DNA of 64,000 nt from assembly GCA_025594325.1 (NCBI GenBank), contig JANHCV010000009.1:1178001-1242000 (forward strand), written 5' to 3'. Positions within the stretch are counted from its first letter, which is position 1. Every line of letters begins with the position of its first letter. Under the pieces are notes generated by a model that saw only the letters and a list, made by a program, of their open reading frames with translations, did not search any database and was not told the origin of the DNA. This DNA comes from Blastocladiella emersonii ATCC 22665. Lineage: Eukaryota; Fungi; Blastocladiomycota. The position numbers and the translations under genes were made by a program. Below are positions 34,763-64,000 of this stretch, piece by piece.

Positions 34763-34934
34763 CCAGCGAGCCGTCGGTTTCTGTAGCGCGTGTACGCGCT
34801 GAATAATATATACTAGCTTTCGTTACTTTGTGCTTGCGGGCAGAGTCGCGCGCAGCTACGCTCACGCTGCCCTTGGATTGATGCTGAAGCGGCGGACAGG
34901 TTTATTCTCACGTGTCAACGTGTGTGTATTATGG

Positions 34935-36298: not shown

Positions 36299-36303
36299 AG
36301 AGA
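36299..36303. repeat. Left target-site duplication AGAGA
   Basis: The identical 5-mer abuts both element ends (36299-36303 and 51090-51094). Confidence 0.9.
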
Positions 36304-36329
36304 TGCCGTATCCCTTAAGGGATACGGCA
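36304..36329. other. Terminal 26-bp perfect palindrome TGCCGTATCCCTTAAGGGATACGGCA
   Basis: Read directly from the sequence; self-complementary. Confidence 0.95.
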
Positions 36330-37039
36330 CATGGCTGCCCTTAGGGACTTCGCCTCTGGACTCTATCCACCCAGGCTAACCCACGTGATATCTCATTGCT
36401 TACCCCGAGTGACTCATAATGAATATAGCGATATCCTTAGGGATTTCGCCACCCGGATCGGAGGCCGAAGGCCGAAGCAGGTGGGCGGGGGGAGGGGGGA
36501 GGGGGGAGCGGCGATCACATGCCCCAGACGCGCAACGCAATGCGACCACGGAGTCACTCTATGAGCCGGCCCACGACTTGGTCGGCGACTTGGTTGCAGC
36601 AATAGGCCCTTGAAGGCTCTCGGAATAATTCCACCAGAGGTCGGCGGTCAGTCCAAGAACGCGAGCAGCGACCCAGGTCAGCGACCAGCCCCAGATGGCT
36701 CTTGATGGCCGCCCCAAACTGGACCGGGTTGGAGCTCACTGGACCGGGTTCAAAGACAACCCGGTCCATGAAATTCGCTTGGGGTAAGCCATGGACCGGG
36801 TTGACCGGGTTGACCGGGTTGTTTAAAGTAACAGTGTAGTGAAAAGGGGGGGAGGGACCGCTCCAGTGCCACTCTTCCCCCCCCCCTTTCAAATCCCTAA
36901 AGGTCAATCGACCCCCTCAACCCGGTCCACCCAGTCCATGGCTTACCCCGAGCGAATTTCAATCGACTTGGTCCATTGAACCTGGTCCATGGCTTATGGC
37001 GAACGGCTCAAAGGGCAGGCAACCCGGTCCAGGCTGCCG
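36304..37039 (+). repeat. Left terminal inverted repeat (~736 bp)
   Basis: Reverse complement of 50364-51089 by eye alignment. Contains repeated GGACCGGGTT/AACCCGGTCC motifs and a 12-bp local duplication absent from the right copy. Confidence 0.9.
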
Positions 37040-37108
37040 TGAACGGTCGCTGCAAGTACAGTAAACAAAAGGTACAAAGTTGTATTCACAAAGGAGTCTC
37101 TGGACTCG

Positions 37109-39415
37109 TTACATCTTGTCGTCGGACAGCTCAACTGTGTACGGCCCGCGGTACTTGTAGATGCGAAGCTTGCGGCGATTCACGGTGCGACGCGTCACCT
37201 CAAAGAGCTCCTGCTTGTTGGCCGGGTTGACTTCGCGCTTGATGTACTCACCGAACTTGGTCTGCGACATGGACAAGCGGCCAGGGAAGCGCTTCTTGGC
37301 GTACTTGCGGTAAAACTCGTAGAACGCGTCTGCCTCGAGCTCCTGCACAACTTCGACCTGGCGCGTGTGGTCCAGGAGGTTGAGCGGGAAGCCGCCGTAC
37401 TCCATGATGTCCATGGCCGGCGCGGGAACCGGCTCCAGTGCCGCCATGATGGCGTTGTTGCGGGCCTGGTTGCGCGAGAACTTGGACAGCGTCAGGTGCA
37501 AGAGGTCGAGGCAGAGGATGTAGGTAAAGATCTCGTCGGCGTGCTCCTTGACAAACGCGTTGAGCTCGCCAAAGTAGTTCTCGTCCTGGCACTTGATGTT
37601 GGACATCTTGAGGACGAACTCGCGGCAACCAGTCTTGGTGAGTGGCAGCACATTGCAGTTGTTGGTCGCGATCATAAAGTTGTTGACGTTCTTGACCTCC
37701 TTGCGTTTCATGTACTTTTCGTTGACAATGAGCTTGTCCTCGGTGACCATGCTCTTGAGCTTGTCAAACGCGTTCTTGAGCTTGGCTGGCTTGCTGGAGG
37801 GCATCTTGTCAAACAGCACGAGCATCTTGTGGGCGATCTCCGAGTTGAACTCGCCCTTGAGCCACGTTGGCCCGTTGCTGATGGACACCGTGTTCTTGCG
37901 GCCAATAATGTACTGGGCCAGAAGGTGGTAGAACTTGCCCTTGCCCACGCCCTCAAGACCCGTCAGCAGCAGCATCACGCCATTGGCCTTGCCTGTGGTG
38001 AGCAGGCACTGGATCCACTTGAGGACATACGCGTACTCTTCCTTGTTGCCGCTGCAGACCACGTCGCAAATGTACTCGAGGTACATGACAATCAACTCGG
38101 GCTCAATGTCGTGGCCAAGGTCTGTGGCCGCAAACCCGTAGAACGTGTTAAAGTAGTCGACCACGAGGCCGTTCTGGTGAGACGGGCCCCACTGCGGTTT
38201 GTGCATGTCAAAGATGAGCGCCTTGACCTGTGGAGCGTACTTGATGGCCCCCGTGCTGCACGCCTTCTTCACGTTGTCCTCGCCGTTGGTGTCCCAGGCG
38301 TCAGTCACGGTGCGGCGAAAGTACATCTCGCCGACCAGGTCCTTGTGGACAAACTTGCCCACGTACTTGATCACGGCCTCCTTCCACGACTGCTTGTCCT
38401 CGTCCACCTTGCGGCTGAGGTAGTGGGTGATGACCTTGCCGATCCAGTTGTTGTCGTAGTGCGGGTCACGCTCAAGCTGCACGGCAACAAACGCGGCCGG
38501 GTCCTTGCAAAAGTTGGGGAGCTTGCCCTTGTCCTTGGACTCAGGCACCGTGATCTCCTTCTCGTCCCACTCCACCTCAAAGCCCGTGTACTTGAGCGTG
38601 TTGGCAGACATCTTGGCAAGCAGCTCGGCGTTGACGCAGTCGTCCTTCTTGACCATGAACCCGTCAAACACAAGCACGCTTGGCACAAGGTTGTTGGCAC
38701 GGGCAAAGTCAATGGCGCGCATCAGGAGGATTGACTTGACAGCCTGGAACAGGTTGGAGAGCACTGAGCCCTTGTTCATGGTCTTGTCTGCGCGAGGCTT
38801 GGACGCCTTGACAACGTGCGGAAAGTCCTTCTCAATCAGCTTGTACAGCGAGCCGTACAGCATGTGGTGGAAGGCTGCAAGCTTGGGGTGCACCGCGTTG
38901 CAGTTGACAAACTCATTGAACAGCATTGAGAGGAACTCCTGCTTATCCCCGAGCCCCCACTTGGCCAGCACGGCCGTGCGGTTGGCGAGGTACTGGTCAA
39001 AGACGCCGTGGCCAAGGTTGTAGTGCTGGCAGACGCCGCAGAGGATCGACGGCGCCGCGCCCTTCATGTCAAGGTCCTGGAGCACGCCCTTGGCCAGCGG
39101 GCTGCGGATGAGGTCCTTGCTGAAGCTCTGGAGCGACGGCGACGTGGCGTAGAGTCGGCCAAACTTCTTCTTGACCAAGGTTGACCGCGTGGTGAACAAG
39201 TACACGGTCTCCTTGCCATCGCCGTAGCTCGCCTTGGCCAGCGCCGCGTAGGCCTTGAGCTTCTTCTTGACCTCAGCGTCAATGCCCGAGTACCGCGCGC
39301 AGAGCCCGTCAAGCACGTCCTTGTTGTAGTACTCGTGCAGCACGACCTGGCCCGAGTCCATGAACATGGACTTGGTGTAGTCGAGGGTCTTGGCGATCTT
39401 GGTTAGCTGGGGCAT
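37109..39415 (-). CDS. TVpol (PolA-related primase-polymerase) fused to SF3 helicase (~768 aa), probably inactivated by point mutations
   Basis: N-terminal GRLY...SLQ, DLDMKGAAPSIL and VFDGFMV motifs; C-terminal Walker A GLEGVGKG, degenerate Walker B LFDKM and NFMIATNN. ATG 39415 (MPQLTK). Confidence 0.8.
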   Translation of the reverse strand: MPQLTKIAKTLDYTKSMFMDSGQVVLHEYYNKDVLDGLCARYSGIDAEVKKKLKAYAALAKASYGDGKETVYLFTTRSTLVKKKFGRLYATSPSLQSFSKDLIRSPLAKGVLQDLDMKGAAPSILCGVCQHYNLGHGVFDQYLANRTAVLAKWGLGDKQEFLSMLFNEFVNCNAVHPKLAAFHHMLYGSLYKLIEKDFPHVVKASKPRADKTMNKGSVLSNLFQAVKSILLMRAIDFARANNLVPSVLVFDGFMVKKDDCVNAELLAKMSANTLKYTGFEVEWDEKEITVPESKDKGKLPNFCKDPAAFVAVQLERDPHYDNNWIGKVITHYLSRKVDEDKQSWKEAVIKYVGKFVHKDLVGEMYFRRTVTDAWDTNGEDNVKKACSTGAIKYAPQVKALIFDMHKPQWGPSHQNGLVVDYFNTFYGFAATDLGHDIEPELIVMYLEYICDVVCSGNKEEYAYVLKWIQCLLTTGKANGVMLLLTGLEGVGKGKFYHLLAQYIIGRKNTVSISNGPTWLKGEFNSEIAHKMLVLFDKMPSSKPAKLKNAFDKLKSMVTEDKLIVNEKYMKRKEVKNVNNFMIATNNCNVLPLTKTGCREFVLKMSNIKCQDENYFGELNAFVKEHADEIFTYILCLDLLHLTLSKFSRNQARNNAIMAALEPVPAPAMDIMEYGGFPLNLLDHTRQVEVVQELEADAFYEFYRKYAKKRFPGRLSMSQTKFGEYIKREVNPANKQELFEVTRRTVNRRKLRIYKYRGPYTVELSDDKM

Positions 39416-39539
39416 GGCCGAGTAGTTACTGTTGAGCAAAGAAAAAAGCATTGTACTTTGATGCGGAAAAACGCAGTCTGGGAGCAGGGGCAGGGCCGTG
39501 TACTTGAAGTGCCGCAATTATTGCTATTGCCGCTGGCCA

Positions 39540-39630
39540 TGACCTGACCCTGACCCTGACCCAGCTGCCCTTGCGTGACCTGACCCTGACCCTGACCCAG
39601 CTGCCCTTGCGTGACCTGACCCTGACCCAG
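39540..39630. repeat. 36-bp tandem repeat x2.5 built of TGACCC hexamers
   Basis: Unit GACCTGACCCTGACCCTGACCCAGCTGCCCTTGCGT. Confidence 0.85.
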
Positions 39631-39640
39631 ACACGACCTC

Positions 39641-40070
39641 CCCCATGAGCCCGACTTGGGAGCCAATCGCGTCTCATGTCACGATCCTTGAACCGTGACC
39701 TGGGCAGTGACTGAGGGCAAAGTCACCAACCCCCCATGCTCCCAACTTGGGAGCCAATCGAGTCTCAGGTCACGATCCTTGAACCGTGACCTGGGCGGCG
39801 ACTGAGGGCAAAGTCACCAACCCCCCATGCTCCCAACTTGGGAGCCAATCGCGTCTCAGGTCACGATCCTTGAACCGTGACTTGGGCAGCGACTGAGGGC
39901 AAAGTCACCAACCCCCCATGCTCCCAACTTGGGAGCCAATCGCGTCTCAGGTCACAATCCTTGAACCGTGACCTGGGCAGCGACTGAGGGCAAAGTCACG
40001 GACCCCCCATGCTCCCGACTTGGGAGCCAGTAGGGTCCGAGGTCACAAACCTCTCAAACCGTGACCTGGG
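39641..40070. repeat. 91-bp tandem repeat x~4.7 with two internal palindromes per unit
   Basis: The CCCCATG anchor recurs at 91-bp spacing (ATG at 39645, 39736, 39827, 39918, 40009). Confidence 0.9.
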
Positions 40071-40195
40071 CCCTCCCACGGTCCATGACTTGCCACCACC
40101 CTGACCCTGACCCAGGCCCAGCTACCCAGAAAAAAGAACGTTGCGTTCAAACGCACTTGAGCCCATGGAGCCTTTTTGTTGACAGTCAGTAAACC

Positions 40196-41346
40196 ATGGC
40201 GCTTGACTCTCTTGCCTCCCAGGTCGCCATTGCCCTTGCTCAGCACTTTGCTGCCAATGTAGTGCACCAAGTGCTCGATGGTATCAAGCCGCTGCTGGCA
40301 TGCTGGCATCCTTTGACAAGCGGCTCAAGGGAGTTGAGACCAGCCTCGCCGCGCTGGCTGCAGTGTCACATAACTGCAATCACTGTCCCAATCACACCCC
40401 CGTCGACGAGTCTGGTGAGCCCATGGACACTGACCCCCAGGTCAAGTACGCGCAGATGACCAAGGAATCCATTGCGGCGTGCATCAACGCGCGTGTTCAG
40501 AACAAGCACGGGGAACTGGTTGAGCTGAGCGACACGGACAAGGCCAAGACATCCCGCGTGCTCTGTGCCTTTGCCAAGTCGGGCATAGACATTGAAGACG
40601 TTGATGCCGTGTCCAAAGCTGTGGCAGCGTACCGCGCGTCCAAGGGCAAGCAGGGGCTGCAGGTTGAGACGCTCAAGGCCCTGGCCAAGTACTGCACCTG
40701 GAATGGTCAGCCTGAACTCGGGGCCAAGTACACAGAGGCCAAGAAGCAGGACGCTGCCGACTTCCGCGACGCGTGCAAGGAACTCGAGTCTGGTGCGCTC
40801 CCAAGCCGTGACGCCATTTGCACTGCTATTGTTGATGCAAAGGGCTGGGACTCAGGCACGGGGCTTCTGCGTCTGTACCTCCAAGTTGTGAGTGCAGTGC
40901 GCAGCGACCCTGCGTTCCTGACCACAAAGCCAATCACTGGGTACCCGTACTACAACCCAGAGACCCAGATTCTGGCCGGCGATGTCATTGTCAAGACAGA
41001 GGGCTGTGGCTACAACTTCTCGCACACAGTTAGTGAGCCCAAGGTCGCCGCCGCTCTCAAGCGTATCATTGCCCAGCGTCTCGCCAAAGGCCATGACTTT
41101 GTCTTCAACAACTACACCCGCGAGGAGCTCAAGGACACCATGCTCTGCAAGAGGGTTAGCAACACCTGGTGCAAGTCAATTCACCAGGCTGCAGAGACAG
41201 TTGGCTTTGAGGATGGCGGCGTGGCAGTGATCCGCCGTATCTCCACCAGTGAGAACTTTGCTGCACAGCAAGCTATTGCTGACTGCGCACACAAGATGGG
41301 TCACAGCGTCCCTGTTGCCTTGACCTACTACATGACGCCTCAGTAA
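40196..41346 (+). CDS. Tyrosine recombinase / protelomerase-like protein; 8-bp duplication at 40294-40309 shifts the N-terminus
   Basis: Catalytic-order motifs AVRSD (R), VIVKT (K), VIRRI (R) and MGHSVPVALTYY (H...Y). The ORF from 40300 gives 348 aa; removing one GCTGGCAT copy gives a continuous ORF from ATG 40196. Confidence 0.7.
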
Positions 41347-41374
41347 TCCTCTTGTCTCCGCCTTTGTTAATACA

Positions 41375-42487
41375 ATGTATGCCCACAAAGAGCCGCTCAC
41401 AGACGCACAGCAAGCATTCCTGACAGACTTGTACTACAAGCACAGCCACGTAGGTGTTGGCATCCGTTGGCTCTTTGACATTGTGTCCAGAGAGAACACA
41501 GGGAAGCACATCTACTGCGCCCAGCTTGAGAGATGGCTCGGCGAACAGTCTGTGTGGCAGCAGTACAAACGCGCACCTCAGAAGCGCCAAGACATTTGAA
41601 GCATCAACTCAACAAGTCCTGGCTGCAACTTTCAGCTCGACCTCATTGACATGGGCGAAAACGGTACGTACAAGGGCTTCCATTACATTCTCACGTGTGT
41701 CAACCTGGCGAGCCGCCACGTCTACCTCCAACCCATCAAGACCAAGGACAAGACGCGGGAAGCATGGTCCAGCGTGGTTGCCAAGCACAGCCTTGCACCT
41801 GCCACGATCCAGACGGACAATGAGACCGAGTTCTTTGGCATAGAGGCCGGGACCGAGGCCAAGCACATCAAGGGCAAGGCAGGAGTGCCATACAGTCAAG
41901 GTGTTGTTGAGCGTATGAACGGGACCATCCGCCGGATGCTCACACCGTGGCTGTCCATCCCGGGCAACAACGACTGGCCCAAGCACCTCGAGACCATTGA
42001 ATCTGTGATCAACAGCAGCAAGTCGAGGGCCACGGGCAGGGCGCCCAACGAGTTCCATGACATGCCCCGCAAAATGGCCAAGGAAGAGCTCAAGGCAATC
42101 CAAGCTGCCAAGGGCAAGCCAGAAGGCAACCCTCTGAGCGCGTTGTTGAAGGTAGGGACCCAGGTCCAAGTCCGCGAGCCGTACAAGACTGCCATGGAGG
42201 CCAAGGGGAAGCCGGTCTGGTCGCCAACTGTGAGCCAGGCCCAGGTCGTGCGCAAGGGGTCGGGCGTGAGCAATCCAAGCTACAAGGTCCAAGGCCTCAA
42301 GGGCTTCTATCCACACAGCGACGTCCAGCCAGTCACAGCGACCCAGGACCCGCCAGCAAGGCAGCGCGTAGGTCCAAGTCTTCCAAGGCTCCCTGCTGCG
42401 CGCACCCCGGTCACGCCAAGGGAGCCCTCGACCCGGGTCAGGCGCGTCCCAGTCCAAGTCCAAGAAAAGTGGGACCTTGGGCTTTAG
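41375..42487 (+). pseudogene. Retroviral-type (rve, DDE) integrase with one in-frame TGA at 41597
   Basis: FQLDLIDM (D), IQTDNETEF (D), SQGVVERMNGTIRR (E), and a Polinton-type C-terminal LKVGTQVQV...WS...Y block. ORFs 41375-41599 and 41651-42487 are in the same frame. Confidence 0.9.
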
Positions 42488-44427
42488 AGCAGGGTCCAGT
42501 AGCTTTGAATGATGACCTGGCAGTTGTTGGCAATTGCGACCAATGGGATCCAGATGAAAGAGTAGCTCTTGGCCGCGTCAAGGTACTCAATGCTCGAGAA
42601 CTGAAGGAACTGGACGTTGCCTTCAGCGCGGCACCCAGTGACAAGCGACACTGCAATCATGTCCGTCATATTGTACAGCGCAAAGTTCACAGTGTGGGCT
42701 CCAGGGAGCGCGCCGTTTGCGTAGTAGCCCTTTGCATGGACGAGGTAGTAGCCACTGACAGGGGGTTTGACACATCCATTGATCACAGACGTGAACGCGC
42801 CTGCCGTGGACTGGAACGCAAAGGTGGCCGGGCCCGTCAATGCTGTGCCGCCAATGATCTTGCTGCCCGTGGTCACTCCGTTTGTAGAGCGGTGCTTGGC
42901 CTGAGCGACATACCAGGTCATGCCAGACTGCAAGTCAACGTACGCCTTGTTTGCCGCGTCGGTGCCTGCCACTGGAGTGAGGTCAAGGGTGAGCTGCCCT
43001 GTGAAGCGACCAGTGCCATTGACGCGGAGCTTTTCTGTGCCAAGCGTCGCCGAGCCCACAACCACGTTGCCGCCACCTGCCACAAGGGAGACCCCACCCG
43101 TGGTTGCAGACGCAATCTCAATGTTACCCGCCGCTGTGCATGCCAGGTTGCTTCGCAGTACGCCTGCCTGCTTAAAGTCGACGTACGTCAATGTATTGGC
43201 AGCCAAGTCAAAGACAAGGTTTGCGCTTGTGGCATTCTGGACCAGGACGTTGGGCACAGTCAGTTGCTTGCCAACTCCAAGACCACCAGCAATGGTGACT
43301 GCTCCAGTGCTTGATGTCAAACTGTCCGTCGTACTTGCAAAGGCAAAGGCAGCGCCAAGCCCAAGGGTGGACTGGGGGAGCGTGCCAGCGACCGAGGCTG
43401 CGCTCACCGCTGTGACCTTGGCCGAGACGTCGGGGAGTTGTGCCAGGTCAATGGTCCCTGCGAGCTTGGCTGAGTCAATGCCGGATGCCAGCTTGGCGTT
43501 GGTCAGGGTCCCGTCTGCAATGCGGGCAGGGTCAAGGATCCCAGTGAGCTTGACTGCTGACACGTCTGTAACCTTGGCGTCCGTGACTGCACCTGCTGCC
43601 AGGTGGGAAGATCCAATGGACCCGACGTTGAGCTTGGCCCCGTCAATGCCAGTTGCCAGCTTGGCGTTGGTCACGGCCGCGTCTGCCAGGACCGAGGTGC
43701 CAACTGTGCCCGCTGCCAGCTTGGACCCGTCGATGCCAGCTGCCAGTTTGGCGTTCGATACGGCACCGTCTGCCAGGGCTCCCGTCCCAATAGTCCCTGC
43801 AACGAGCTTGGACCCAGACACGGACGCGACCTTGGCATCTGTGACTGCCAGGTCAATGAGAGCCGCCGTGCCGACTGTGCCTGCCACAAGCTTGGACCCA
43901 GACACGGACGCGACCTTGGCATCAGTCACTGAGCCGTCTGCCAGGACTGAGGTCCCAACTGTGCCTGCCACGAGCTTGGACCCGGACACGGACGCAACCT
44001 TGGCATCTGTCACTGAGCCGTCTGCCAGGACCGAGGTTCCAACGGCTGGGAGGTTGGACGCACTGAGCACGCCCACGACCTTGGACGCAGACACAGTGTC
44101 CAGCTGAGCATCGACGAGCTTGCCTGTGACCTGCCCTGCTGTAATCGTGGCGACCTTGTTGGCCGTGACGCTGGCTGGGAGCAGCTGTACCGTGCCAACC
44201 GACTTGACATAGAGCCCAGCTGCGCCCACGCCAAGGGTCTGGTTGTCGACCTTGGTCGAGACAGTGGTCCCTGAGACTGCCACGCCAGGGCCAGCAACAG
44301 GTGCGCCAACCGTGGCGTACACGGCACTGATGGCCGCGTCAACGTAGGCCTTGGACACGTCCGGGACCCCCGTGGTAGACACGGTCGGAGACGCAGTACT
44401 TGAGACGTTAAAGATATTCTTGACCAT
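42484..44427 (-). CDS. Putative virion fibre/spike protein (647 aa) with repeated shaft and possible C1q/TNF-like head
   Basis: Repeats such as VGTSVLADGSVTDAKVASVSGSKLVAGT, a SKAYVD/NKAYVD motif near both ends, and a beta-rich C-terminus with PPVSGYYLVHAKG. Confidence 0.65.
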   Translation of the reverse strand: MVKNIFNVSSTASPTVSTTGVPDVSKAYVDAAISAVYATVGAPVAGPGVAVSGTTVSTKVDNQTLGVGAAGLYVKSVGTVQLLPASVTANKVATITAGQVTGKLVDAQLDTVSASKVVGVLSASNLPAVGTSVLADGSVTDAKVASVSGSKLVAGTVGTSVLADGSVTDAKVASVSGSKLVAGTVGTAALIDLAVTDAKVASVSGSKLVAGTIGTGALADGAVSNAKLAAGIDGSKLAAGTVGTSVLADAAVTNAKLATGIDGAKLNVGSIGSSHLAAGAVTDAKVTDVSAVKLTGILDPARIADGTLTNAKLASGIDSAKLAGTIDLAQLPDVSAKVTAVSAASVAGTLPQSTLGLGAAFAFASTTDSLTSSTGAVTIAGGLGVGKQLTVPNVLVQNATSANLVFDLAANTLTYVDFKQAGVLRSNLACTAAGNIEIASATTGGVSLVAGGGNVVVGSATLGTEKLRVNGTGRFTGQLTLDLTPVAGTDAANKAYVDLQSGMTWYVAQAKHRSTNGVTTGSKIIGGTALTGPATFAFQSTAGAFTSVINGCVKPPVSGYYLVHAKGYYANGALPGAHTVNFALYNMTDMIAVSLVTGCRAEGNVQFLQFSSIEYLDAAKSYSFIWIPLVAIANNCQVIIQSYWTLL

Positions 44428-44447
44428 GTTTAACCTTAAGCAACAGA

Positions 44448-44699
44448 ATGATTTCCAGCGACCATGACCTGAGCCTGGACAAGTGGCGGGAGCACCTCGC
44501 CGGGACCATGCCCGTTCCAAGCAGCTGGTACAACAAGAGCGACAAGGACAAGGCCAAGTGGCTACGGAAGCGCGACTGCAAGGCCAACCGGTACACGCAC
44601 GTCGACAACGAGGCAGCGCGGGCCGAACGGGTCAAGATCCGGATCTACAAGGCACTCAACGCCAAGCGCCGGGACCAGGGGGCAAATAGCACCGTCTGA
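44448..44699 (+). CDS. Small basic hypothetical viral protein (83 aa)
   Basis: ATG-started ORF with the same codon style as neighbouring viral genes, divergent from the fibre gene. Confidence 0.5.
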   Translation: MISSDHDLSLDKWREHLAGTMPVPSSWYNKSDKDKAKWLRKRDCKANRYTHVDNEAARAERVKIRIYKALNAKRRDQGANSTV

Positions 44700-44811
44700 G
44701 GGACAAAAGGCACCTGCCACGGGGAAAAAGGTACGCCCAATGGTGCAAGATGCACGGGGAAAAAGGTACCGACAGGGGGACGCTTTATTTTTGGTCCATA
44801 CAGTAACTATC

Positions 44812-46527
44812 ATGGGCCAAAGAACAGTACCAGATCTACTTGCAAGAGTGACCAATGCAACCAGCGGGCGCATCACGGCCGAGCACCTTGCAGGGCAGAA
44901 GCTCAAGGCAACCATTGATGGCCGCAAGTACACGTTCCCCAATGCCAAAGAGCTCCTTGACGTCTGGGTGCCTTACATCCTTGCCTTTGACTACAAGGTG
45001 ACGCCCGAGAGCTATGCCAACGACTTTGGCTGCAAACAAGGCGACTCGCTGTTCTACCTCAGGCACCAGGACGGCGTCACTAGGTACAAGGTCAAGGACC
45101 TCCAGGAGCACGTCCAAGATACGCTTAAAGCGTGGGAAGAGCACCAGGCAACAGGCAAGGTCACTTGAGTCCCAGTTGCTCCACCAGTGGCAAGCCCCAG
45201 ACCAGAGGCCCCCAAGTTGGCCATGGACAGCAACAGGGGCAGCAGCGAAGAGGAACGCGACGAGCTGGCAGAAGAGATCTCACAAGCCCTGGACGTCATT
45301 GATGAGGACGCTGTACCAGACCACTTGCTCCCTGTGCCCGTCCGGCCAGTCATGCCCAAGCAGTACCCAGTCGAGGCCAGCGACTATGTTGGTCAAGACA
45401 TTGAAGAGTACGGCGCCATGATCCCTGGCCAGTACCTGATCCAGAATGACAATGACGGTGGCAACGACTCGCCCCCAAGGCTTGACAACGGCACCCGCAA
45501 CCTCGTGGTCATGCCACCAAGCTACGGCCCGGACGTGGCACAGCGGCAAGGCGTGTACAACGAGGGTCACGTCCACCCAGCCATGGACGAGGCACGCATG
45601 ATCGAGGGCTCCAAGGACTTGCAGGTCTACAACCCCGAGCGGGCGCTGACAACCACGGACAACATGGAGGTCGACGTTGTCCAGAACTTTCAACAGTTTA
45701 ACCAGTTTGTGTACAACAGCTCCACGCAGCAGAACACGCAGAACGTCAACATGCGGCAGTTCATCACCCAGTACAAGAACAACTACTACGAGCAGAACGT
45801 GGACATGCGACAGCAAATCCTGGTCCAGTACAACAATGACCCGAACGTCATGGCTGCGCTCAAGCTCATTGCCTCGCAGTTTGCCGGGTCCCAGGTCATG
45901 CAGTACCAGGCGTACCAGGCGCTCATCAAGCAGTCGGTGGCCGCTCAGGGACTGGCCATGGACGCATTTGCCAACCTCGCGTCCGGGATTGTGGACACGC
46001 TCCGAGCCAAACGCAACGACTTTGTCCGCCAGATTGACGCTGGCAACTGCGCGCTTGTGTCTGAGATTGCCACGGGCATGTCCTCGGCTCTCAGCAACCA
46101 GCAGGTGCTCATGAACCAACTTGCAAGCGGCGTCCAGGGCGCGATCCAAGGGCAGACCCAGAGCAACAAGGCCATGACCAAGACGCTCCAAGACCTTGGG
46201 TCCAAGCTGGACACGATCCCTGCACCCCAAGTCATTGTCCAGCCTGCCGACACAAGCGGCCTCAAGGCCATGATCAGGGAGCTGGCCGCGCAAAACAATT
46301 CTGGCGGTAGTTCTAAGAAGACCGACATGCTCCTCGAACAGATCCTCAAGCAACTGGGCTACAGGAAGCCAACTGACGCGAAGCTGTTCACAGACAAGCG
46401 GGCAGCGGGTAGCGGGCTGACAGCGCCCAAGATCCAGCGTCACCAGAAGATCCCTGAGCGGCCTGTCAAGCAGGTCCGCGAGACCCCAAGGCGCAGCGGC
46501 ATTGTGCTTGACCTCGGCTGGGACTGA
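44812..46527 (+). pseudogene. Hypothetical viral protein (~571 codons) with one in-frame TGA at 45166
   Basis: ORFs 44740-45168 and 45187-46527 are in the same frame, separated only by TGA (KVT*VPVAPP). N/Q-rich central part. Confidence 0.6.
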
Positions 46528-46553
46528 CGCCCTTTTTTGTTGGCAGTCTTTAA

Positions 46554-47351
46554 ATGTACGACATTGTTGCCATTGACAACGGCTTTACACGCAACGACAA
46601 CGGCGAACCGCTGCCAATCCCCAAGCACCCGTTCACCATGAACGTCATTGGTGCCAAGGGTCAGGGCAAGTCGACGCTGATCGCAAACATGGTCTGCTTC
46701 CCACACTTTTACAAGGGCCAGTTTGACAACGTCTGGGTCTTTAACCCGACGTTCCACGCCGACAACGAGTACGAGTACATTGCCAGTCAACCAATCCTGT
46801 GACCGCCCAAGAAGGAGCGCAACGTGCTGGACCCCCAGGAGCGCGACCCGGACCGGCTCAAGATCAAGCCAGGGTGCATTGTCACGGACCCCGAGCAGTT
46901 CATCCCAACCCTGCTCAAGATGCGCCAGGACCTGACCAAGACATTTGAAGAGTCTGGCAAGAAGGCGCTCCAGGACCAGCTGCTGATCATCGACAACGTG
47001 CTTGGGCTCAAGCTGCTGAGCCACAGAACGCTGACCAACTTTCTGTGCAACTCGCGGCACTTGAAGATCAGCTGCATCATTGGCGTCCAGCAGTGGTGTG
47101 CCCTGCCCAAGACTCTGCGCATCAATTGCAGCTACAGCGTCGTCTACCCAATCTATGACAAGACCAAGGTCCAGACGCTGCACAAGGAGATTGGGTCGCA
47201 GTTCGACCTCAAGGAGTTTGAGGCCATCATTGAACAGCTCTTTGACACGCATACTGGCAACACAAAGCGACGCTTCCTGGGCGTCAACAACCAGAACCCG
47301 CCCAAGTACCGGCTCGTAGACAGCTTCAGCAAGTGGATTGTCAAGGGATAG
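46554..47351 (+). pseudogene. FtsK/HerA-family (A32-like) genome packaging ATPase with in-frame TGA at 46800
   Basis: Walker A GAKGQGKST, degenerate Walker B LLIIDN, and SRHLKISCIIGVQ...LPKTLRIN. The two ORFs are in one frame. Confidence 0.9.
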
Positions 47352-47390
47352 ACCGCCAACTTTTTTTGTTGCAGTGTTCTAAACTAAACC

Positions 47391-48611
47391 ATGTCCAGTA
47401 CCAACGCCCAGTTCTCGCAGGTCCTGTCCAAGACTCTCCCTCCCGAGATGTCATTCAACCTGCCCAAGGAGTCCGTCTATGCCGAGCGCCAGACCGTCCA
47501 GTTCACGGCTCAGGGCGGCCCTGAGTTTGCTCCTGGCAACAGCATAAGCGTCCTGCTCCCGCCGCGCGACGACATGATGGACACGCACTGTACTTTCCTG
47601 CAGTTCTCGGCCAAGACCACAGACGCCAACGTCGCTTTTTGCAATGGTATCTTCAGCGTCATTGACCGTGTCCGCATCTACAGCGCGTCTGGTGCCCTAC
47701 TCGAAGAGCTCCCGTACTACAACCTGCATCAGCGCATTGAGGCCGACGTGACGGTCCCCCAGTACCTCAAGGACTCGTGTCTTGGCGTGGCACAGGGCTA
47801 CTTTGCGTCTGGCGCTGACAAGTTTGCCGTCTCGTCTGGGCTGCACCGGTACATGCTGCCCATCAAGTCCGCCCTGCTGGCGAACCAGAAGCACCTCCCA
47901 ATGAAGTACATGGGCGGCATCCGCGTTGAGTTCACCCTTGCACCTGGCAGCGACGCCTGCGTGGTCAAGAACAATGCAATCCCGGGCTACACAGTCAAGG
48001 ACGTCTGCATTGTCTCGGACCTGATCAAGCTCAACGACCAGCAGATCGCGGTCATGGACGCGGCCTTCAAGAAGCAGGGCCTCAAGCTCTTTGGCACGAC
48101 CTACAACCACCACTTCCTGAACTACTCAGTGCCCAACTCGACGCTCAACATCTCGGACCGCTCGGCCTCACAGAAAGACATCCTGCTGTCGTTCCGCAAC
48201 AATGCCGTGCTCAACGACAATGCCAAGGACTCGTTCCTTTGTGCCAAGACCATTACATCGTACCAGTTCAGCGTGGCCGGCCAACTCTTCCCTCAGTGAC
48301 CCATCCGCTGTGACGACTATGCGTCCGAGGCGTTTGTTGAGCTGACCAATGCCTTCCATGGCCACGTCATTGGCGCTGGCCTCACAGTTGACAAGTTCAA
48401 CGCGCCGGCCGAGGGTACCTTTGTTGTCGGCCGTGACCTTGAGTCAAGTCGCACCGTGGTCAGCGGCGACAAGTCTTGCAAGAGCCAGGCCGTGGACATG
48501 CAGGTGATCCTGACTTCAAGCGTGGCCCCGAACCAGCGCGTGGACGCCTTCATTGGCATCGACGTGGTCTACGAGTTCCTGCCAACCGGCGAGATCAACA
48601 TCTACAAGTAA
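47391..48611 (+). pseudogene. PLV-type double jelly-roll major capsid protein (406 codons) with in-frame TGA at 48297
   Basis: SVIDRVRIYSASGALLEELPYYNL near the N-terminus. The frame continues past the TGA through GTFVVGRDLE...SG to EINIYK*. Located between ATPase and minor capsid gene. Confidence 0.8.
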
Positions 48612-48653
48612 CGGCCCTGTCCTTTCTTTTCTTGCGTAGAGTTAAACCCCGCC

Positions 48654-48920
48654 ATGATCTTCCGTAACCTCTGGACCAACTTTAGCAATGTGCTCGGCCA
48701 GGTTGGGTCCTTTGTCAACAAACACATGCCAACCGTCCTCAAAGGCGTCAAGACCGTGTCCAAGTTCTTTGAGCGGTCGCACAACCCCGCCGTGAGCTCC
48801 ATTGCGCAGATGGTGACCAAGGGCGCGGACCTTGCCCAAGACATTCACACCTGGTACAACCAACCAACAAGCGAGATCTTTGAGGCAGACGCTGACGACA
48901 CGGGGACAGCTGTACAATAA
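48654..48920 (+). CDS. Small protein (88 aa) with N-terminal amphipathic helix
   Basis: MIFRNLWTNFSNVLGQVGSFVNKHMPTVLKGVKTVSKFF; sits between MCP and minor capsid gene. Confidence 0.6.
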   Translation: MIFRNLWTNFSNVLGQVGSFVNKHMPTVLKGVKTVSKFFERSHNPAVSSIAQMVTKGADLAQDIHTWYNQPTSEIFEADADDTGTAVQ

Positions 48921-48938
48921 ATTGTTGTCTTTGTTTAA

Positions 48939-49670
48939 ATGTCCGAGTACAAGACGCTGACCATCTGCAGCCGTGACCTCAAGAACGGCATCCTGTACCT
49001 ACCACAACCCCTGTCCGTGCGCGGCGTCAAGGTCAACTCGGCGTACCTCTGCAACAGCTGGCACAAGGCCAACAAAGTGTACCTGACCCAGAGCCGTGGC
49101 GCGCTGACGTTCCCGGGCACCATCACCGTCCCTGATGGCAACTACACGGTCGAGACGTTCACGGCCACGCTCAAGAGCCTGCTCAACAACGCGCCCTCAG
49201 CGTACCTCTGGCAGGGCACATGGGACGTCCAGGTTGACTCGACTACCCAGAAGATGCGCCTGGCCAACGACACGGTTGACTTTACAATTGGAACAGGGAC
49301 GGCGTCGCTGAACGTCCACATGGGCTTTGTTGGAGCGTATGGCTACAGCAAGGTCCAGTACGCGTCGGCGCTGGTCAACATCTCGCCCATCAACCTGCTT
49401 CACGTCTACTCGCGCAACCTTGGCACCCGGCTTGCGGACAACATGTACAGCGCGTACCCACAAGACAACGGCGTACTTTGTAGCATCCACGTCACGCAAC
49501 CCTTTGGCAGCTGGTTTGAGCATCGACCACACATGGGTGACTACTTTCGCTTTGACGCGCAGGGACAGGCCCAGCAGATTGACTGTATTGACATTGACGT
49601 GGTAGACAAGAACCTGCGCTCTGTCAACTTTCTCGGCCAACCCTTCTACGTCGAGCTCGCGTTCATCTGA
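48939..49670 (+). CDS. Minor capsid (penton) protein (243 aa)
   Basis: VPDGNYT insertion motif and C-terminal IDCIDIDVVDKNLRSVNFLGQPFYVELAF pattern typical of PLV/virophage pentons. Confidence 0.8.
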   Translation: MSEYKTLTICSRDLKNGILYLPQPLSVRGVKVNSAYLCNSWHKANKVYLTQSRGALTFPGTITVPDGNYTVETFTATLKSLLNNAPSAYLWQGTWDVQVDSTTQKMRLANDTVDFTIGTGTASLNVHMGFVGAYGYSKVQYASALVNISPINLLHVYSRNLGTRLADNMYSAYPQDNGVLCSIHVTQPFGSWFEHRPHMGDYFRFDAQGQAQQIDCIDIDVVDKNLRSVNFLGQPFYVELAFI

Positions 49671-49701
49671 CGTTGACTTTAATTGTTGTCGTACTGTAAA
49701 C

Positions 49702-49797
49702 ATGATCCTCGAGACGCTCCTTGTTGCAACCAACGCCCTGATCCTCGTAGCCAACCTGGCCATTGTTGGGTACAAAGCAAAGTATTCCGCGCCGTAG
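49702..49797 (+). CDS. Predicted 31-aa single-pass membrane micropeptide
   Basis: MILETLLVATNALILVANLAIVGYKAKYSAP*, preceded by the TTGTTG...TAAAC-ATG motif seen upstream of other viral genes. Confidence 0.5.
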   Translation: MILETLLVATNALILVANLAIVGYKAKYSAP

Positions 49798-50035
49798 AGT
49801 AAGCAAAAACATGTGCTTTAAATTCTTTCTTCAAAGGCATAGTAAGACACAGGACAATGAATACTGGCTCTACTGCATCAACGCCCCGCGCACCTTCCAC
49901 GAGCATCCCTTGGACTGGCCGTCCGGGCCCCCAGTCAACAGCCAACTACACGGCCATCCACAACGTGGCCCTGCCAGGTGCCAAGGTTGTGTACACTGTC
50001 TGCTTTGAATAGATCCTTCAAGTTAACTTGGTTAG

Positions 50036-50215: not shown

Positions 50216-50363
50216 AGTTACAGTAGTCCAACAAAGTTTAAATTGACAAACGCATTCAACGCACTTGGCATGACGTAGCAACGGGACACACTACGGCATT
50301 GTGGACCCGACCAGGGCCCCTGCCCACTTTTGAACAGCTCGCCGTAAGCCATGGACCGGGTCG

Positions 50364-51089
50364 CGGCAGCCTGGACCGGGTTGCCTGCCCTTTGAACCGT
50401 TCGCCATAAGCCATGGACCAGGTTCAATGGACCAAGTCGATTGAAATTCGTTCGGGGTAAGCCATGGACTGGGTGGACTGGGTTGAGGGGGTCGATTGAC
50501 GTTTAGGGATTTGAAAGGGGGGGGGGGAAGAGTGGCACTGGAGCGGTCCCTCCCCCCCTTTTCACTACACTGTTACTTTAAAACAACCCGGTCAACCCGG
50601 TCAACCCAGTCCATGGCTTACCCCAAGCGAATTTCATGGACCGGGTTGTCTTTGAACCCGGTCCAGTGAGCTCCAACCCGGTCCAGTTTGGGGCGGCCAT
50701 CGAGAGCCATCTGGGGCTGGTCGCCAACCTGGGTCGCTGCTCGCGTTCTTGGACTGACCGCCGACCTCTGGTGGAATTATTCCGAGAGCCTTCAAGGGCC
50801 TATTGCCGCGACCAAGTCGTGGGCCGGCTCATAGAGTGACTCCGTGGTCGCGTTGCGTTGCACGTCTGGGGCATGTGATCGCCGCTCCCCCCTCCCCCCT
50901 CCCCCCGCCCACCTGCTTCGGCCTTCGGCCTCCGATCCGGGTGGCGAAATCCCTAAGGATATCGCTATATTCATTATGAGTCACTCGGGGTAAGCAATGA
51001 GATATCACGTGGGTTAGCCTGGGTGGATAGAGTCCAGAGGCGAAGTCCCTAAGGGCAGCCGTGTGCCGTATCCCTTAAGGGATACGGCA
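50364..51089 (-). repeat. Right terminal inverted repeat (~726 bp) ending in the 26-bp palindrome (51064-51089)
   Basis: Reverse complement of 36304-37039. Confidence 0.9.
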
Positions 51090-51094
51090 AGAGA
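51090..51094. repeat. Right target-site duplication AGAGA
   Basis: Matches 36299-36303. Confidence 0.9.
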
Positions 51095-59910: not shown

Positions 59911-59936
59911 TGAAGTATCCTTATAAGGATACTTCA
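59911..59936. other. Terminal 26-bp perfect palindrome TGAAGTATCCTTATAAGGATACTTCA
   Basis: Read directly from the sequence; self-complementary. Confidence 0.95.
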
Positions 59937-60829: not shown

Positions 60830-63205
60830 CTACTCACAATCATTGCCGTCGTCCTCTCCAGTATTGAGTCTGTAGCTGTAGACCACACCAGTCACCACTG
60901 GCCGCTTGGTCCGGGCCGTCCGATTGTACTGGGTGCACCAGTCCTTGGCATGCTTGCCCATGCAGTGCTTGCAGAGGTTTATTGTGGCCTTGCCCAGTCC
61001 GCGCGCCTCCATCAGGGAGTCATTCCACTTGGTTTTGGGGTGCAGATCAAGTGCGCGGAGGAAATCAGTGTAAAGCATCGCCTGCTCCGGATCCGCCGTC
61101 ACAGTCAGCGGGCAGTCATCATCAATCAGTGCGCTCCCAATTGGATCGTTTGCCAGTTTAGCCATGACAGCGTTATCCTTGAATACCTGCGCCATCATGT
61201 CATCGCGGAATGTGAGCCCCTGGTTCTCCTCAAGGTGCTGCACAGTGAAGTGATACGCGTCCAGGGCAAACAGCAGAATGTTCAGCAAGTACTTGTCTCG
61301 GATCTGCGCCTGGAGGAACGTGTTCTCGCGTTCGGGCTTCTTTGTAAAGTTGATAAACATGAAACGCTTGGAAACTTCGTTGAAAACTTCGGTAATCTTG
61401 AGAACAAAGTTGGACGTTGGCAGCATATGCGCCTCAAAGGCATCAGTGACCTCGTCCCCGCCCTTTCGCGCGCTGGAAAGTCCCTGACCCTCGACCAGGT
61501 TCTTGGCCGTCTGGAAACCAAGTTTCTCGAAAAAGTCGGCATTTACATCTGTGAGCTCCCACGCGACCTTGTTCTTCGTATACGCGATCGTAAACTTGGT
61601 CACAGTTTCATCACTGGCCGTGGCCTGGAAGCGGTGCATCCCATGGATGTCCTGAACAAGCTTGATGGACAGGGACTTGCCCGTGCCCGACTCGCCATAG
61701 GTAAATGGCGTGATTGCCCAGTTGTCAAAGTATCCCACTGGGAACATGGTGCGGCCAAAGTACATCATCACGTACTGAATCTTGGCAAGCTCGTTGCTAC
61801 CAAACTGTAGATCAAGCACGTCCTGATAAGGGCCCAGGCTGAGCTCAGAGTACTTGTTCAGGTAATCGAAATCGAACTCGTTGTCAATGTACGTCCACAC
61901 CACTGGGTTCCCACTGCAAACGTGGTTTACAAACCACTCGTAGTTGTCCTCGATGTCCTGTAGAGAAATTGGCCCCCATTTACGGTTCTCATGCGTGCTA
62001 GTGAACAGAACCCCATTCTTGAACGCGATCAGGCTGCGGTTTTGTTTGTACTGGGGGATGTTCTTAGAACCCTGCGCCAATCGCTGTGTTACGTGGCGGC
62101 GGTACTTGCTTGCGTCCTGGTTGTAATAGTCGACAATTACGTCATCGAGAATGTAGGACACGTACTCATCCACTGTCATGTGGCGCTCAAAATAAAACGG
62201 GTTCTTTGCTGATGGCTTGTAAATGTACTCGCTGTCCTTGACATAGCCCAGGGTCTTGAACTCGTCCACGATAAACTCTGAGATCAACTGCGTTGGTGTC
62301 TTCTCCTCCTCCTCTTCCTCGGGCTCTGGAATGGCACAGGGCGCGACAATGGGTTTCTCGGCCCACATGATATCAAAACCCGTCTTTTCGAGCGTGTACG
62401 CACCGAGGTCGGCCATAAACTGCTCGTTGATCTGATCTGAGGCACGGACCATCATGCCGTCGTACATGAGAACCGCGACCTTGATGTCACGCGAGGCGCA
62501 AAAGTCCTTGGCGTGAAGAAGGAGCTTGCACTCGACACACTGATAGACGAACGAGAGGAATGAGCCCTGGCGATTGGGATGCTTTGGCGACGACATGGCC
62601 CACACATCCGGGTGCATCTCTTGAAACTTGGGAACCACGACGTTGTACAAAAACGCGTGGAACGCCTTGTACTCGGCGGGAAACTCCAACGGACACTTTT
62701 TGCTGAACGAGCCAGCGAAGAAATCGGTTTTGTTCATGCCCAGTCGATCAAGTACGCTGTTTCGGTTCTCAATGTACTCGTTGAGAAGAGGGTACTCGAG
62801 TCCATGGTGACGAGCCAGTTGGTGGATGATGGTTGGCGCACAGTTGTGCATGTCGATATCTTGGAGCACGCCCTCGAACAGGAACGCACGCGTTTCGCCG
62901 CAAATCTTTTGTAGCCCAGGAGTAGTAGGCGTGGTAGTAAGTCGGCCAGAGTTTGTCGTGTCTGAGAACTTGTAGATGGTCTCGACTTCACCGCGCTTAT
63001 TCATCTTGCGACGGATTGAGTTGACGATTTTCGTTTCCTTGGCCTGTTGCTTTGGGTCGGCACACGAACACTGGATCGCCTTGCTGTGTAGAGCTTCCAC
63101 GGCCTTGGGGTTCACTGGCGCCATGAGGCGGACGGCATAGAGCGGGTCAAGAATCTTTGAAAGGTCCTTGACAGTCTCGGTAATCTTTGAGGCGGCGGAA
63201 GACAT
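60830..63205 (-). CDS. TVpol fused to D5-like SF3 helicase (791 aa, intact)
   Basis: SGRL...GLQ, DIDMHNCAPTII, YQCVE, LMYDGMMV, and Walker A YGESGTGKS. The N-terminal half parallels 37109-39415. Confidence 0.85.
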   Translation of the reverse strand: MSSAASKITETVKDLSKILDPLYAVRLMAPVNPKAVEALHSKAIQCSCADPKQQAKETKIVNSIRRKMNKRGEVETIYKFSDTTNSGRLTTTPTTPGLQKICGETRAFLFEGVLQDIDMHNCAPTIIHQLARHHGLEYPLLNEYIENRNSVLDRLGMNKTDFFAGSFSKKCPLEFPAEYKAFHAFLYNVVVPKFQEMHPDVWAMSSPKHPNRQGSFLSFVYQCVECKLLLHAKDFCASRDIKVAVLMYDGMMVRASDQINEQFMADLGAYTLEKTGFDIMWAEKPIVAPCAIPEPEEEEEEKTPTQLISEFIVDEFKTLGYVKDSEYIYKPSAKNPFYFERHMTVDEYVSYILDDVIVDYYNQDASKYRRHVTQRLAQGSKNIPQYKQNRSLIAFKNGVLFTSTHENRKWGPISLQDIEDNYEWFVNHVCSGNPVVWTYIDNEFDFDYLNKYSELSLGPYQDVLDLQFGSNELAKIQYVMMYFGRTMFPVGYFDNWAITPFTYGESGTGKSLSIKLVQDIHGMHRFQATASDETVTKFTIAYTKNKVAWELTDVNADFFEKLGFQTAKNLVEGQGLSSARKGGDEVTDAFEAHMLPTSNFVLKITEVFNEVSKRFMFINFTKKPERENTFLQAQIRDKYLLNILLFALDAYHFTVQHLEENQGLTFRDDMMAQVFKDNAVMAKLANDPIGSALIDDDCPLTVTADPEQAMLYTDFLRALDLHPKTKWNDSLMEARGLGKATINLCKHCMGKHAKDWCTQYNRTARTKRPVVTGVVYSYRLNTGEDDGNDCE

Positions 63206-63324
63206 TTTGGGGATGTTCTTACTGTCCCACAAGAGGAAAAACCGGCTGCTTTTATGCGTCTGGCGCGTTTATCGATAACTCTTCAGAAATAGCTATCGAT
63301 ATGTCATTTGGATCGCGGGAACGT

Positions 63325-63875: not shown

Positions 63876-64000
63876 ATGGCGTCGTTCGAGCTTCTGGTCA
63901 AGGACATCCTCGCGCAAGCCACCAAGGAGTTTATGAACGCCCTCGAGCCCCGCCTCCAAGCCATCGAGGACAAGCAAGCGACGATTCTCAGCCACATGGC
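63876..64000 (+). CDS. 5' end of a divergent viral gene, possibly the PLV-2 tyrosine recombinase orthologue
   Basis: MASFELLVKDILAQATKEFMNALEPRLQAIEDKQATILSHMA is open to the window edge. It has the same position and orientation as the PLV-1 recombinase, a similar coiled-coil (LEPRLQAIED vs FDKRLKGVET), and a similar TTTTT-G...AGTAAA leader. Confidence 0.45.
   Translation, partial: MASFELLVKDILAQATKEFMNALEPRLQAIEDKQATILSHM

What the first reader, a model, noticed from the sequence alone, without database searches (positions are those of the whole stretch)
40196..42487. Adjacent tyrosine recombinase and rve integrase in a pPolB-less, protease-less PLV
Both recombinase classes sit in tandem in one 14.8-kb element that replicates with a TVpol-SF3 helicase. 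No protein-primed PolB or adenain-like protease ORF was seen. Since the TSD and CA ends point to rve for integration, the tyrosine recombinase needs another job, such as end resolution, excision or multimer resolution. This gene combination is uncommon to my knowledge; I cannot confirm novelty without a search.
Basis: partly seen in the sequence, partly recalled or inferred. Interest (0 to 1): 0.7.

Follow-up and report, generated by a model that had tools for sequence, protein, structure and literature searches.

The report
Palindrome-tipped fungal provirus with two recombinases
A decayed 14.8-kb Polinton-like provirus, likely in an aquatic fungus, carries both a retrovirus-type integrase and a tyrosine recombinase and ends on both sides in a perfect 26-base palindrome; the integrase likely inserts the genome, while the recombinase likely cuts that palindrome to release it, possibly as a hairpin-ended molecule.

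Summary
Confirmed, with corrections. The element spans 36304-51089, with ~740-bp TIRs, TG...CA ends and a 5-bp target duplication. The 40.2-41.3 kb protein has a tyrosine-recombinase (YR) fold and catalytic R-K-R-H-Y residues. The next gene is a standalone rve integrase. There is no room for pPolB or a protease. This copy is decayed: YR is frameshifted, and rve, ATPase and MCP each have an internal stop, against a background of CpG-type transitions.

New here: both ends are a perfect 26-bp palindrome. A second element family starting at 59911 has a YR 39% identical and an otherwise unrelated end, yet also begins with a perfect 26-bp palindrome. The two palindromes share TG/CA tips and 6-bp arms around a variable 6-bp core, which is how YR and telomere-resolvase sites are built.

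Best reading (0.4): rve integrates, and YR resolves the palindrome into hairpin ends, which would remove the need for protein priming. Excision to a circle at the same site fits the provirus equally well. YR+rve without pPolB is known in EMALE virophages. One survey of 8,300 elements found no genuine pair. I found no paper describing this Blastocladiella family.

The parts
36299..36303 (+). Left target-site duplication (5 bp)
   Evidence: Identical to 51090-51094
36304..36329 (.). Left terminal perfect 26-bp palindrome (TG...CA; 6-bp arms around a 6-bp core); candidate YR site and rve att end
   Evidence: one of only 3 perfect palindromes >=16 bp in the window
36304..37042 (.). Left TIR (~740 bp) with inner iteron-like repeats and a subterminal ATCC-N4-GGAT at 36433
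37109..39451 (-). PolA-like (TVpol) + SF3 helicase fusion
   Evidence: DUF5906 E 9e-17; PHROG primase E 2e-22; N-domain 34% identical to the second element's; TVpol motifs recalled, no profile
39640..40094 (.). Tandem 91-bp repeats (about 5 units) between the divergent helicase and YR genes; origin or promoter candidate (inferred)
   Evidence: family D2
40196..41346 (+). Tyrosine recombinase of the PLV/virophage type; frameshifted near 40293 in this copy; catalytic residues intact
41375..42487 (+). Standalone Polinton-type rve (DDE) integrase; premature stop at 41597
42484..44427 (-). Repeat-rich fibre-like protein, 647 aa
   Evidence: Pfam Phage_Tail_Tip E 2.5e-9; repeats D14 and D20
44448..46527 (+). 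Three unassigned ORFs (83, 142, 434 aa)
   Evidence: no significant Pfam hits; none in PHROG for the two tested
46554..47351 (+). A32-type packaging ATPase; premature stop at 46800
   Evidence: Pox_A32 E 6e-7; frame continuity
47391..48611 (+). Major capsid protein (double jelly roll, by feature similarity); premature stop at 48297
   Evidence: 406-aa homologues; ESM feature hits 0.97-0.98 including DJR and NCLDV capsid clusters; structure model unusable, pLDDT 36
48654..49670 (+). 88-aa ORF and 243-aa candidate minor capsid protein (by position; not confirmed)
   Evidence: follows MCP in other copies by locus tag
50361..51089 (.). Right TIR
51064..51089 (.). Right terminal perfect 26-bp palindrome, identical to the left one
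51090..51094 (+). Right target-site duplication (5 bp)
59911..59936 (.). Perfect 26-bp palindrome starting a second element family; 18 of 26 identical to the first, 4 compensated pair changes
60830..63268 (-). Second element: PolA-like + helicase open frame
63876..64000 (+). Second element: start of a family-2 YR gene (runs off the window)
   Evidence: First 41 aa identical to the N-terminus of P0013

Best explanation
This is a decayed copy of a multi-copy Polinton-like virus in which the rve integrase likely inserts the genome, and the tyrosine recombinase likely acts on the terminal 26-bp palindrome to resolve replicated or integrated ends into hairpin-ended linear genomes. Shown: gene content, YR fold and catalytic residues, TSD and CA ends, and perfect palindromes in two families. 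Inferred cycle: (1) the PolA-helicase copies the genome without a protein primer; (2) TIR-palindrome-TIR junctions, and the proviral ends, are cut by a YR dimer across the 6-bp core and resealed as hairpins, as telomere resolvases do; (3) rve nicks the hairpin end after the CA that lies 13 nt from the axis and joins that 3'-OH to host DNA; (4) host gap filling unfolds the hairpin and gives a full palindrome at each end plus the 5-bp duplication, which is what the provirus shows. The YR would be a functional analogue of a protelomerase, not a member of that family.
For: Both ends of element 1 and the one visible end of element 2 are perfect 26-mers. They are the only 3 perfect palindromes >=16 bp in 64 kb; about 0.0015 of length >=26 are expected by chance. 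Between families the TG/CA tips and GTATCC/GGATAC arms are kept and the 6-bp core varies but stays symmetric, while downstream 50-bp blocks match at only 8-13 of 50 ungapped and local alignment finds no extended match. TelA cuts a palindromic target 6 bp apart (PMC3558466, passages). K, H and Y are present in 21 of 21 aligned family members and both catalytic Arg in 20 of 21; the exception is a 149-aa fragment. The His of HxxR is replaced by A, Q or R, as it is replaced in TelA. All 21 end 2-7 residues after the catalytic Tyr, leaving no alphaN helix; in XerA, losing it permits cleavage but blocks recombination (PMC3646895, abstract). In EMALEs YR is in all pPolB-less types and is not reported for the pPolB types (PMC8547959). 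YR correlates with PolA/AEP replicases generally (10.64898/2026.10.13.758929, passages). Terminal palindromes associate with non-pPolB elements (10.64898/2026.07.28.741278). PgVV (TVpol + YR) is packaged as linear TIR-flanked DNA whose ends could not be assembled (10.1101/2022.07.28.501842, passages).
Against: No activity, episomal form or scar was observed. The fold is closer to XerA, Cre and TopoIB (Z 9-10.6) than to telomere resolvases. In Foldseek, TelA had TM 0.25 and TelK 0.27 against up to 0.39 for Cre, all at E > 0.001. The covariation rests on two families, and any hairpin-copying route makes a palindrome perfect without involving YR. A circle-excision route yields the same proviral ends. 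Halocafeteria PLV subtype 4 has terminal palindromes although no PLV there was found with both YR and rve. Cryptophyte PLVs with YR and no rve integrate, mostly without TSDs, so related YRs are thought to recombine (PMC12220804). rve linkage in other copies rests only on contig cover, and element 2's rve lies outside the window if it exists.
Confidence: 0.4

Rival explanations
1. YR is a Cre/Xer-like recombinase that excises the provirus as a circle by recombining the two terminal palindromes; a symmetric core is what lets inverted TIR ends excise. rve re-integrates by a 26-nt staggered cut at the two CAs of the circle junction.
For: Best whole-length fold matches are XerA and Cre. The site has lox/dif-like anatomy. 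It predicts the same proviral ends. Telomere resolution and recombination interconvert by few mutations in TelA (PMC12270096, abstract), so both could occur in sequence.
Against: No alphaN helix. The circle would hold a ~1.5-kb near-perfect inverted repeat. It does not by itself solve end replication of a linear packaged genome. No circle junction at the tips appeared among the joints listed, but those are contigs only and not informative.
Confidence: 0.25
2. YR is a second integrase for insertion into a helper giant virus, rve serves the host genome, and the palindrome is a replication primer unrelated to YR.
For: This is the explanation given for EMALEs and Halocafeteria virophages (PMC8547959; 10.64898/2026.07.28.741278). 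The best named viral fold matches are giant-virus proteins (Aureococcus, Heterosigma, Harvfovirus). Zoosporic fungi including Allomyces carry Mycodnaviridae (PMC13533422, passages).
Against: It does not explain why YR tracks loss of pPolB, nor the conserved arms around a 6-bp core. No separate att-like site was recognised. The text of PMC13533422 does not mention Blastocladiella (0 occurrences).
Confidence: 0.2
3. The pair is a mosaic: a TVpol-YR end module gained an rve, and YR is now a leftover or a DNA-binding regulator. The palindrome serves only rve nicking and self-primed hairpin replication.
For: End modules are exchanged often (PMC11296320, passages). The helicase domains of the two families do not align. 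YR-fold repressors (SroF, MrpR) are among the fold matches.
Against: All catalytic residues persist between families that are 39% identical and in a 25% identical outside homologue. At least 17 annotated loci keep the gene.
Confidence: 0.15

Closest known systems
Mid-GC EMALE virophages (types 5-8) of Cafeteria burkhardae (PMC8547959; section 7 and passages read)
   Same: No pPolB; long primase/helicase with a possible polymerase domain; YR plus rve; TIRs; mostly 3-5-bp TSDs
   Different: Types 5-7 have virophage capsid genes and a protease (type 8 is truncated); the text does not mention terminal palindromes (0 hits); YR is read as a giant-virus integrase
Halocafeteria seosinensis endogenous virophages and PLV subtype 4 (bioRxiv 10.64898/2026.07.28.741278; section 7 and passages; figures and supplements not seen)
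   Same: Palindromes at TIR tips next to TSDs, associated with non-pPolB replicases and particular rve; YR+rve in some virophages
   Different: 52-nt palindromes in subtype 5; YR+rve stated as absent from the PLVs; palindromes read as self-priming hairpins, with no YR role proposed
TVpol-S3H + OLV11-like YR PLVs (PgVV/Gezel-14T, cryptophyte cluster C1; PMC4642659, PMC12220804, 10.1101/2022.07.28.501842; passages, plus section 10 of PMC12220804)
   Same: TVpol-helicase next to YR at one genome end; no protease; MCP, mCP and A32 ATPase; TIRs
   Different: They lack rve and mostly lack TSDs. In 8,300 elements rve co-occurred with YR only in 12 cases, all RT-fused retrotransposon insertions
Hairpin telomere resolvases (TelA, TelK/TelN, ResT; also the phaeovirus resolvase, PMC13236599 passages)
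   Same: YR/TopoIB catalytic domain; HxxR His replaced; palindromic target with a 6-bp core
   Different: No Pfam telomere-resolvase hit; fold closer to Xer and Cre; no C-terminal extension after the Tyr; no activity shown
PLV genes noted in Allomyces macrogynus and Spizellomyces punctatus (PMC7805220; passages)
   Same: Integrated PLVs in zoosporic fungi; the nearest non-Blastocladiella TVpol relatives are labelled Allomyces arbusculus
   Different: Only MCP, ATPase and helicase were noted for Allomyces; ends, YR and rve were not described in the passages seen

Membership tests
Polinton-like virus | Double-jelly-roll MCP | tested here: met
   ESM feature hits 0.97-0.98 including DJR and NCLDV-capsid clusters, family shares only 10-16%; own model unusable; moderate support
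Polinton-like virus | A32-type packaging ATPase | tested here: met
   Pox_A32 E 6e-7, above the cut-off
Polinton-like virus | Minor capsid protein | tested here: inconclusive
   243-aa candidate by position; no Pfam or PHROG hit
Polinton-like virus | 14-40 kb, TIR-bounded, usually without maturation protease | tested here: met
   14,786 bp, ~740-bp TIRs, no protease recognised
Polinton-like virus | MCP/ATPase phylogeny within a named PLV clade rather than virophages | not testable with these tools
   No reference set available; only Blastocladiella-labelled MCP homologues found; none in IMG/VR
Maverick-Polinton (strict) | Protein-primed PolB | tested here: not met
   No unassigned space or ORF for it
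Maverick-Polinton (strict) | rve integrase with TSD | tested here: met
   DDE triad, 5-bp TSD
Tyrosine recombinase superfamily | Core-binding plus catalytic domain fold | tested here: met
   XerA Z 10.6 (rmsd 13.5, 237 aligned); Cre Z 10.2 (rmsd 6.8, 225 aligned); TopoIB catalytic part Z 10.1 (rmsd 3.7, 156 aligned)
Tyrosine recombinase superfamily | R-K-HxxR-H/W-Y catalytic set | tested here: met
   R228, K259, R339, H362, Y371 in P0003 numbering, assigned by motif and conservation; the first His is replaced
OLV11-like PLV/virophage YR | Sequence or profile similarity to OLV11 | tested here: inconclusive
   No OLV11 profile held; nearest ESM clusters are ~290-aa Preplasmiviricota proteins at 0.98; BFVD best named hit is an Aureococcus virus protein, and a Qinghai Lake virophage protein is at rank 19
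Hairpin telomere resolvase (protelomerase) | Family-level sequence or fold match | tested here: inconclusive
   No telomere-resolvase Pfam hit in 11 members; TelA at Foldseek ranks 5-6 but E 0.02 and TM 0.25, below Cre by TM
Hairpin telomere resolvase (protelomerase) | Palindromic target with a 6-bp symmetric core | tested here: met
   A candidate site exists at all 3 visible ends; that YR uses it is inferred
Hairpin telomere resolvase (protelomerase) | Converts a junction into covalently closed hairpins | not testable with these tools
   Needs in vitro assay or long reads
LTR retrotransposon insertion (source of rve) | rve fused to RT/RNase H, flanked by LTRs | tested here: not met
   Standalone 370-codon frame between YR and the fibre gene; no flanking direct repeats among those listed

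The most novel reading that the evidence does not exclude
The divergent PLV/virophage tyrosine recombinases that travel with TVpol or AEP replicases are end-processing enzymes that independently evolved telomere resolution. These viruses have hairpin-ended genomes, and here an rve integrase integrates them by opening the hairpin 13 nt from its tip. This would explain the unexplained PolA/AEP-YR association and how pPolB-less TIR genomes replicate their ends, and the 26-bp palindrome is the testable substrate.
Probability: 0.3. Interest if true: 0.8.

Novelty: new variant of a known kind. Interest (0 to 1): 0.55.

Why it matters
How pPolB-less PLVs and virophages replicate linear ends, and why their replicases co-occur with tyrosine recombinases, is open; a 2026 preprint calls the link 'elusive' (10.64898/2026.10.13.758929). 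Here integration is already accounted for by rve, so the YR's other role is isolated. The genome offers intact-looking enzyme copies and a short candidate site in two families, which makes hairpin versus circle a simple assay. The Blastocladiella YRs mostly escape Pfam and PHROG, so surveys may undercount YR+rve PLVs.

Tried and rejected
No whole genome is held, so other element ends and solo-palindrome scars could not be counted; the ends of sister copies remain unread.

IMG/VR scans with the YR, MCP, TVpol-helicase and rve queries found no relative.

4 of 121 matches were perfect palindromes, and 0 of 121 loci hit the YR, TVpol or MCP profiles or the window by blastn. The closest look-alike, L070, is a 52-bp-arm fold-back at a contig end beside prokaryote-like surface-protein ORFs; rejected as chance or assembly artefact.

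The PDB sequence search with the YR profile found nothing relevant. TelA and TelK are not among the 50 rows listed in either VIA run, which does not exclude them. The MCP model had pLDDT 36 and was not searched.

No RNA holder was listed. The '26 members' of the MCP cluster mix MCP and minor-capsid models, so that figure is not a copy number. P0012 (3,652 aa, 32 matched stretches), truncated P0007 and the 54-aa P0016-P0018 were left out of the 21-sequence alignment. Stop read-through by a variant code was rejected: other genes end in TGA, and contigs of other copies differ at the MCP stop.

Literature searches: Blastocladiella + Polinton 0 papers; Polinton-like + protelomerase 0; searches listed none proposing a PLV YR as telomere resolvase. 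The nearest is PMC11296320, which suggests YR acts on the inverted repeats and might resolve poxvirus dimers. The 2024 MMBR review of the supergroup is not held and could bear on novelty. The eLife supplement was listed but not opened, and bioRxiv supplements are closed. No complex prediction was run.

Full report
The element. Inverted arms of 97-99% complementarity bound a 14,786-bp element at 36304-51089. It starts with TG, ends with CA and is flanked by the same 5 bases on both sides. Unique flank contigs from one sample run 29 bases into each end and stop (three runs). This supports both junctions and suggests, by inference, that sister copies share the terminal bases. Gene order: PolA-like/SF3 helicase fusion (minus), about five 91-bp repeats, YR, rve, a fibre-like gene (minus), three unassigned ORFs, A32 ATPase, MCP, a small ORF and a candidate minor capsid protein. 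No unassigned space could hold a pPolB. All 7 close YR homologues and all 6 MCP homologues are labelled Blastocladiella emersonii, so the host is likely this blastoclad fungus or a close relative.

The two genes. The YR frame from 40300 has no Pfam hit. A model of full-length homologue P0003 from 11 sequences reached pLDDT 72.7. Among 48,161 chains, its first 21 rows are YR-fold proteins or type IB topoisomerases, led by XerA at Z 10.6; a second look gave XerA 10.4 and Cre 10.2. The best named viral models come from giant viruses, and the nearest ESM clusters are Preplasmiviricota proteins. R228, K259, R339, H362 and Y371 are kept in 20-21 of 21 aligned members, including a second family at 39% identity and one unnamed protein at 25%. 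The rve is one 370-codon frame with D88, D147 and E178, matching retroviral integrase cores weakly (best E 0.0023). It is standalone, not part of a retrotransposon.

State of this copy. YR is out of frame near 40293 through an 8-nt duplication, and rve, ATPase and MCP each carry an in-frame TGA. CpG observed/expected is 0.67-0.93 in element genes against 1.20-1.24 in host DNA. Of the 33 A>G or T>C differences among the 40 rows shown (890 further rows not shown; the shown ones are the best supported), 32 lie in a CpG context. The copy is most likely inactive and has decayed by CpG-type deamination. Other copies have full-length YR and MCP models. Of 17 named YR loci, 11 lie within six locus tags of a listed capsid gene (two of those identified by length only) and 2 lie next to a family-2 helicase. 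The YR is thus a stable part of the element.

The ends. Both termini are the same perfect 26-bp palindrome. The only other perfect palindrome of 16 bp or more in the window, also 26 bp with TG...CA tips, lies at 59911. It begins a second element with a PolA-helicase and, at 63876, the first 41 residues of a family-2 YR. The two palindromes match at 18 of 26 positions, with four compensated pair changes; downstream the two ends show no extended similarity. The kept positions are the TG/CA tips and a 6-bp arm on each side of a variable, symmetric 6-bp core. The tips fit an integrase att end. Arms around a 6-bp core fit a YR or telomere-resolvase site: TelA cuts a palindrome 6 bp apart (PMC3558466, passages). 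A shorter copy of the arm motif occurs within about 130 bp of the end in both families and nowhere in 45 kb of host DNA. This rests on two families only.

Mechanism. rve explains the TSD. For YR I favour end resolution (0.4). Replication without a protein primer gives TIR-palindrome-TIR junctions, and a YR dimer would cut across the core and reseal hairpins. One rve nick after the CA 13 nt from the axis would free a 3'-OH strand carrying the whole palindrome; strand transfer and gap filling would then give exactly the proviral ends seen. Supporting points: all 21 members end 2-7 residues after the catalytic Tyr, without the alphaN helix that XerA needs for recombination but not for cleavage (PMC3646895, abstract); and in EMALEs YR appears in all pPolB-less types. 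Against: the fold is closer to Xer and Cre than to TelA or TelK, related YRs are thought to integrate rve-less PLVs, and excision to a circle followed by a 26-nt staggered rve cut gives the same provirus (0.25). TelA can be switched between the two reactions by few mutations (PMC12270096, abstract), so they may be steps of one cycle. Integration into a helper giant virus (0.2) and a non-catalytic leftover (0.15) remain. All enzymatic steps are inferred.

Comparison and novelty. YR+rve without pPolB is described for mid-GC EMALE virophages (PMC8547959) and for some Halocafeteria virophages 'but not PLVs'. The same preprint reports terminal palindromes in non-pPolB elements and reads them as primers (figures and supplements not seen). 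In 8,300 mostly PLV elements, rve co-occurred with YR 12 times, always as a retrotransposon insertion (PMC12220804). YR acting on the inverted repeats was suggested in PMC11296320, and the PolA/AEP-YR link is called elusive in a 2026 preprint. My searches found no paper on Blastocladiella Polintons and none pairing Polinton-like viruses with protelomerase; a key review was not held.

Verdict. The module is known in virophages and rare in PLVs, and I found no description of this family. The added value is a conserved candidate target site that makes the YR's role directly testable. New variant of a known kind; interest 0.55.

Noticed in passing
window 59911-64000: A second, divergent element of the same design begins here and runs off the window. 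Its PolA-like domain is 34% identical to element 1's but the helicase domains do not align (domain mosaic). It has an extra 158-aa frame at 63325-63801 with no PHROG hit. Closest outside relatives are labelled Allomyces arbusculus.
   Followed up: partly
window 36769-36961 and 60262-60408: Each family's end region holds an inner inverted repeat of short iterons (a 9-mer 8 times in element 1's TIR; another 5 times in element 2, around a 78% AT spacer), resembling a helicase-loading origin.
   Followed up: partly
window 39640-40094: About five tandem 91-bp repeats between the divergent helicase and YR genes, with CpG observed/expected 0.55.
   Followed up: no
window 36433, 50949, 60004: Subterminal ATCC-N4-GGAT copies of the terminal arm motif in both families; none in 45 kb of host DNA.
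   Followed up: partly
window 36304-51089: Strong CpG-type decay of the provirus in a host whose own DNA is CpG-rich (observed/expected 1.2), suggesting targeted cytosine methylation of viral DNA in a blastoclad fungus.
   Followed up: partly
window 36584-36596: The left TIR has an 11-nt tandem duplication absent from the right TIR; the YR frameshift is likewise a short tandem duplication.
   Followed up: no
window 1-20200 and 56400-59340: Tandem array of about seven ~2.9-3.7-kb host paralogues, with a further copy beyond the element.
   Followed up: no
window 27242-34802: Three tandem ~2.6-2.8-kb paralogous host genes, partly split into several ORFs.
   Followed up: no
window 21088-25614 (-): Host RNA polymerase largest subunit (all five Rpb1 domains; likely Pol III).
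   Followed up: no
P0011: The only YR homologue found outside Blastocladiella labels (25% identity, unnamed 7.1-kb contig); it keeps all catalytic residues and the short C-terminus.
   Followed up: partly
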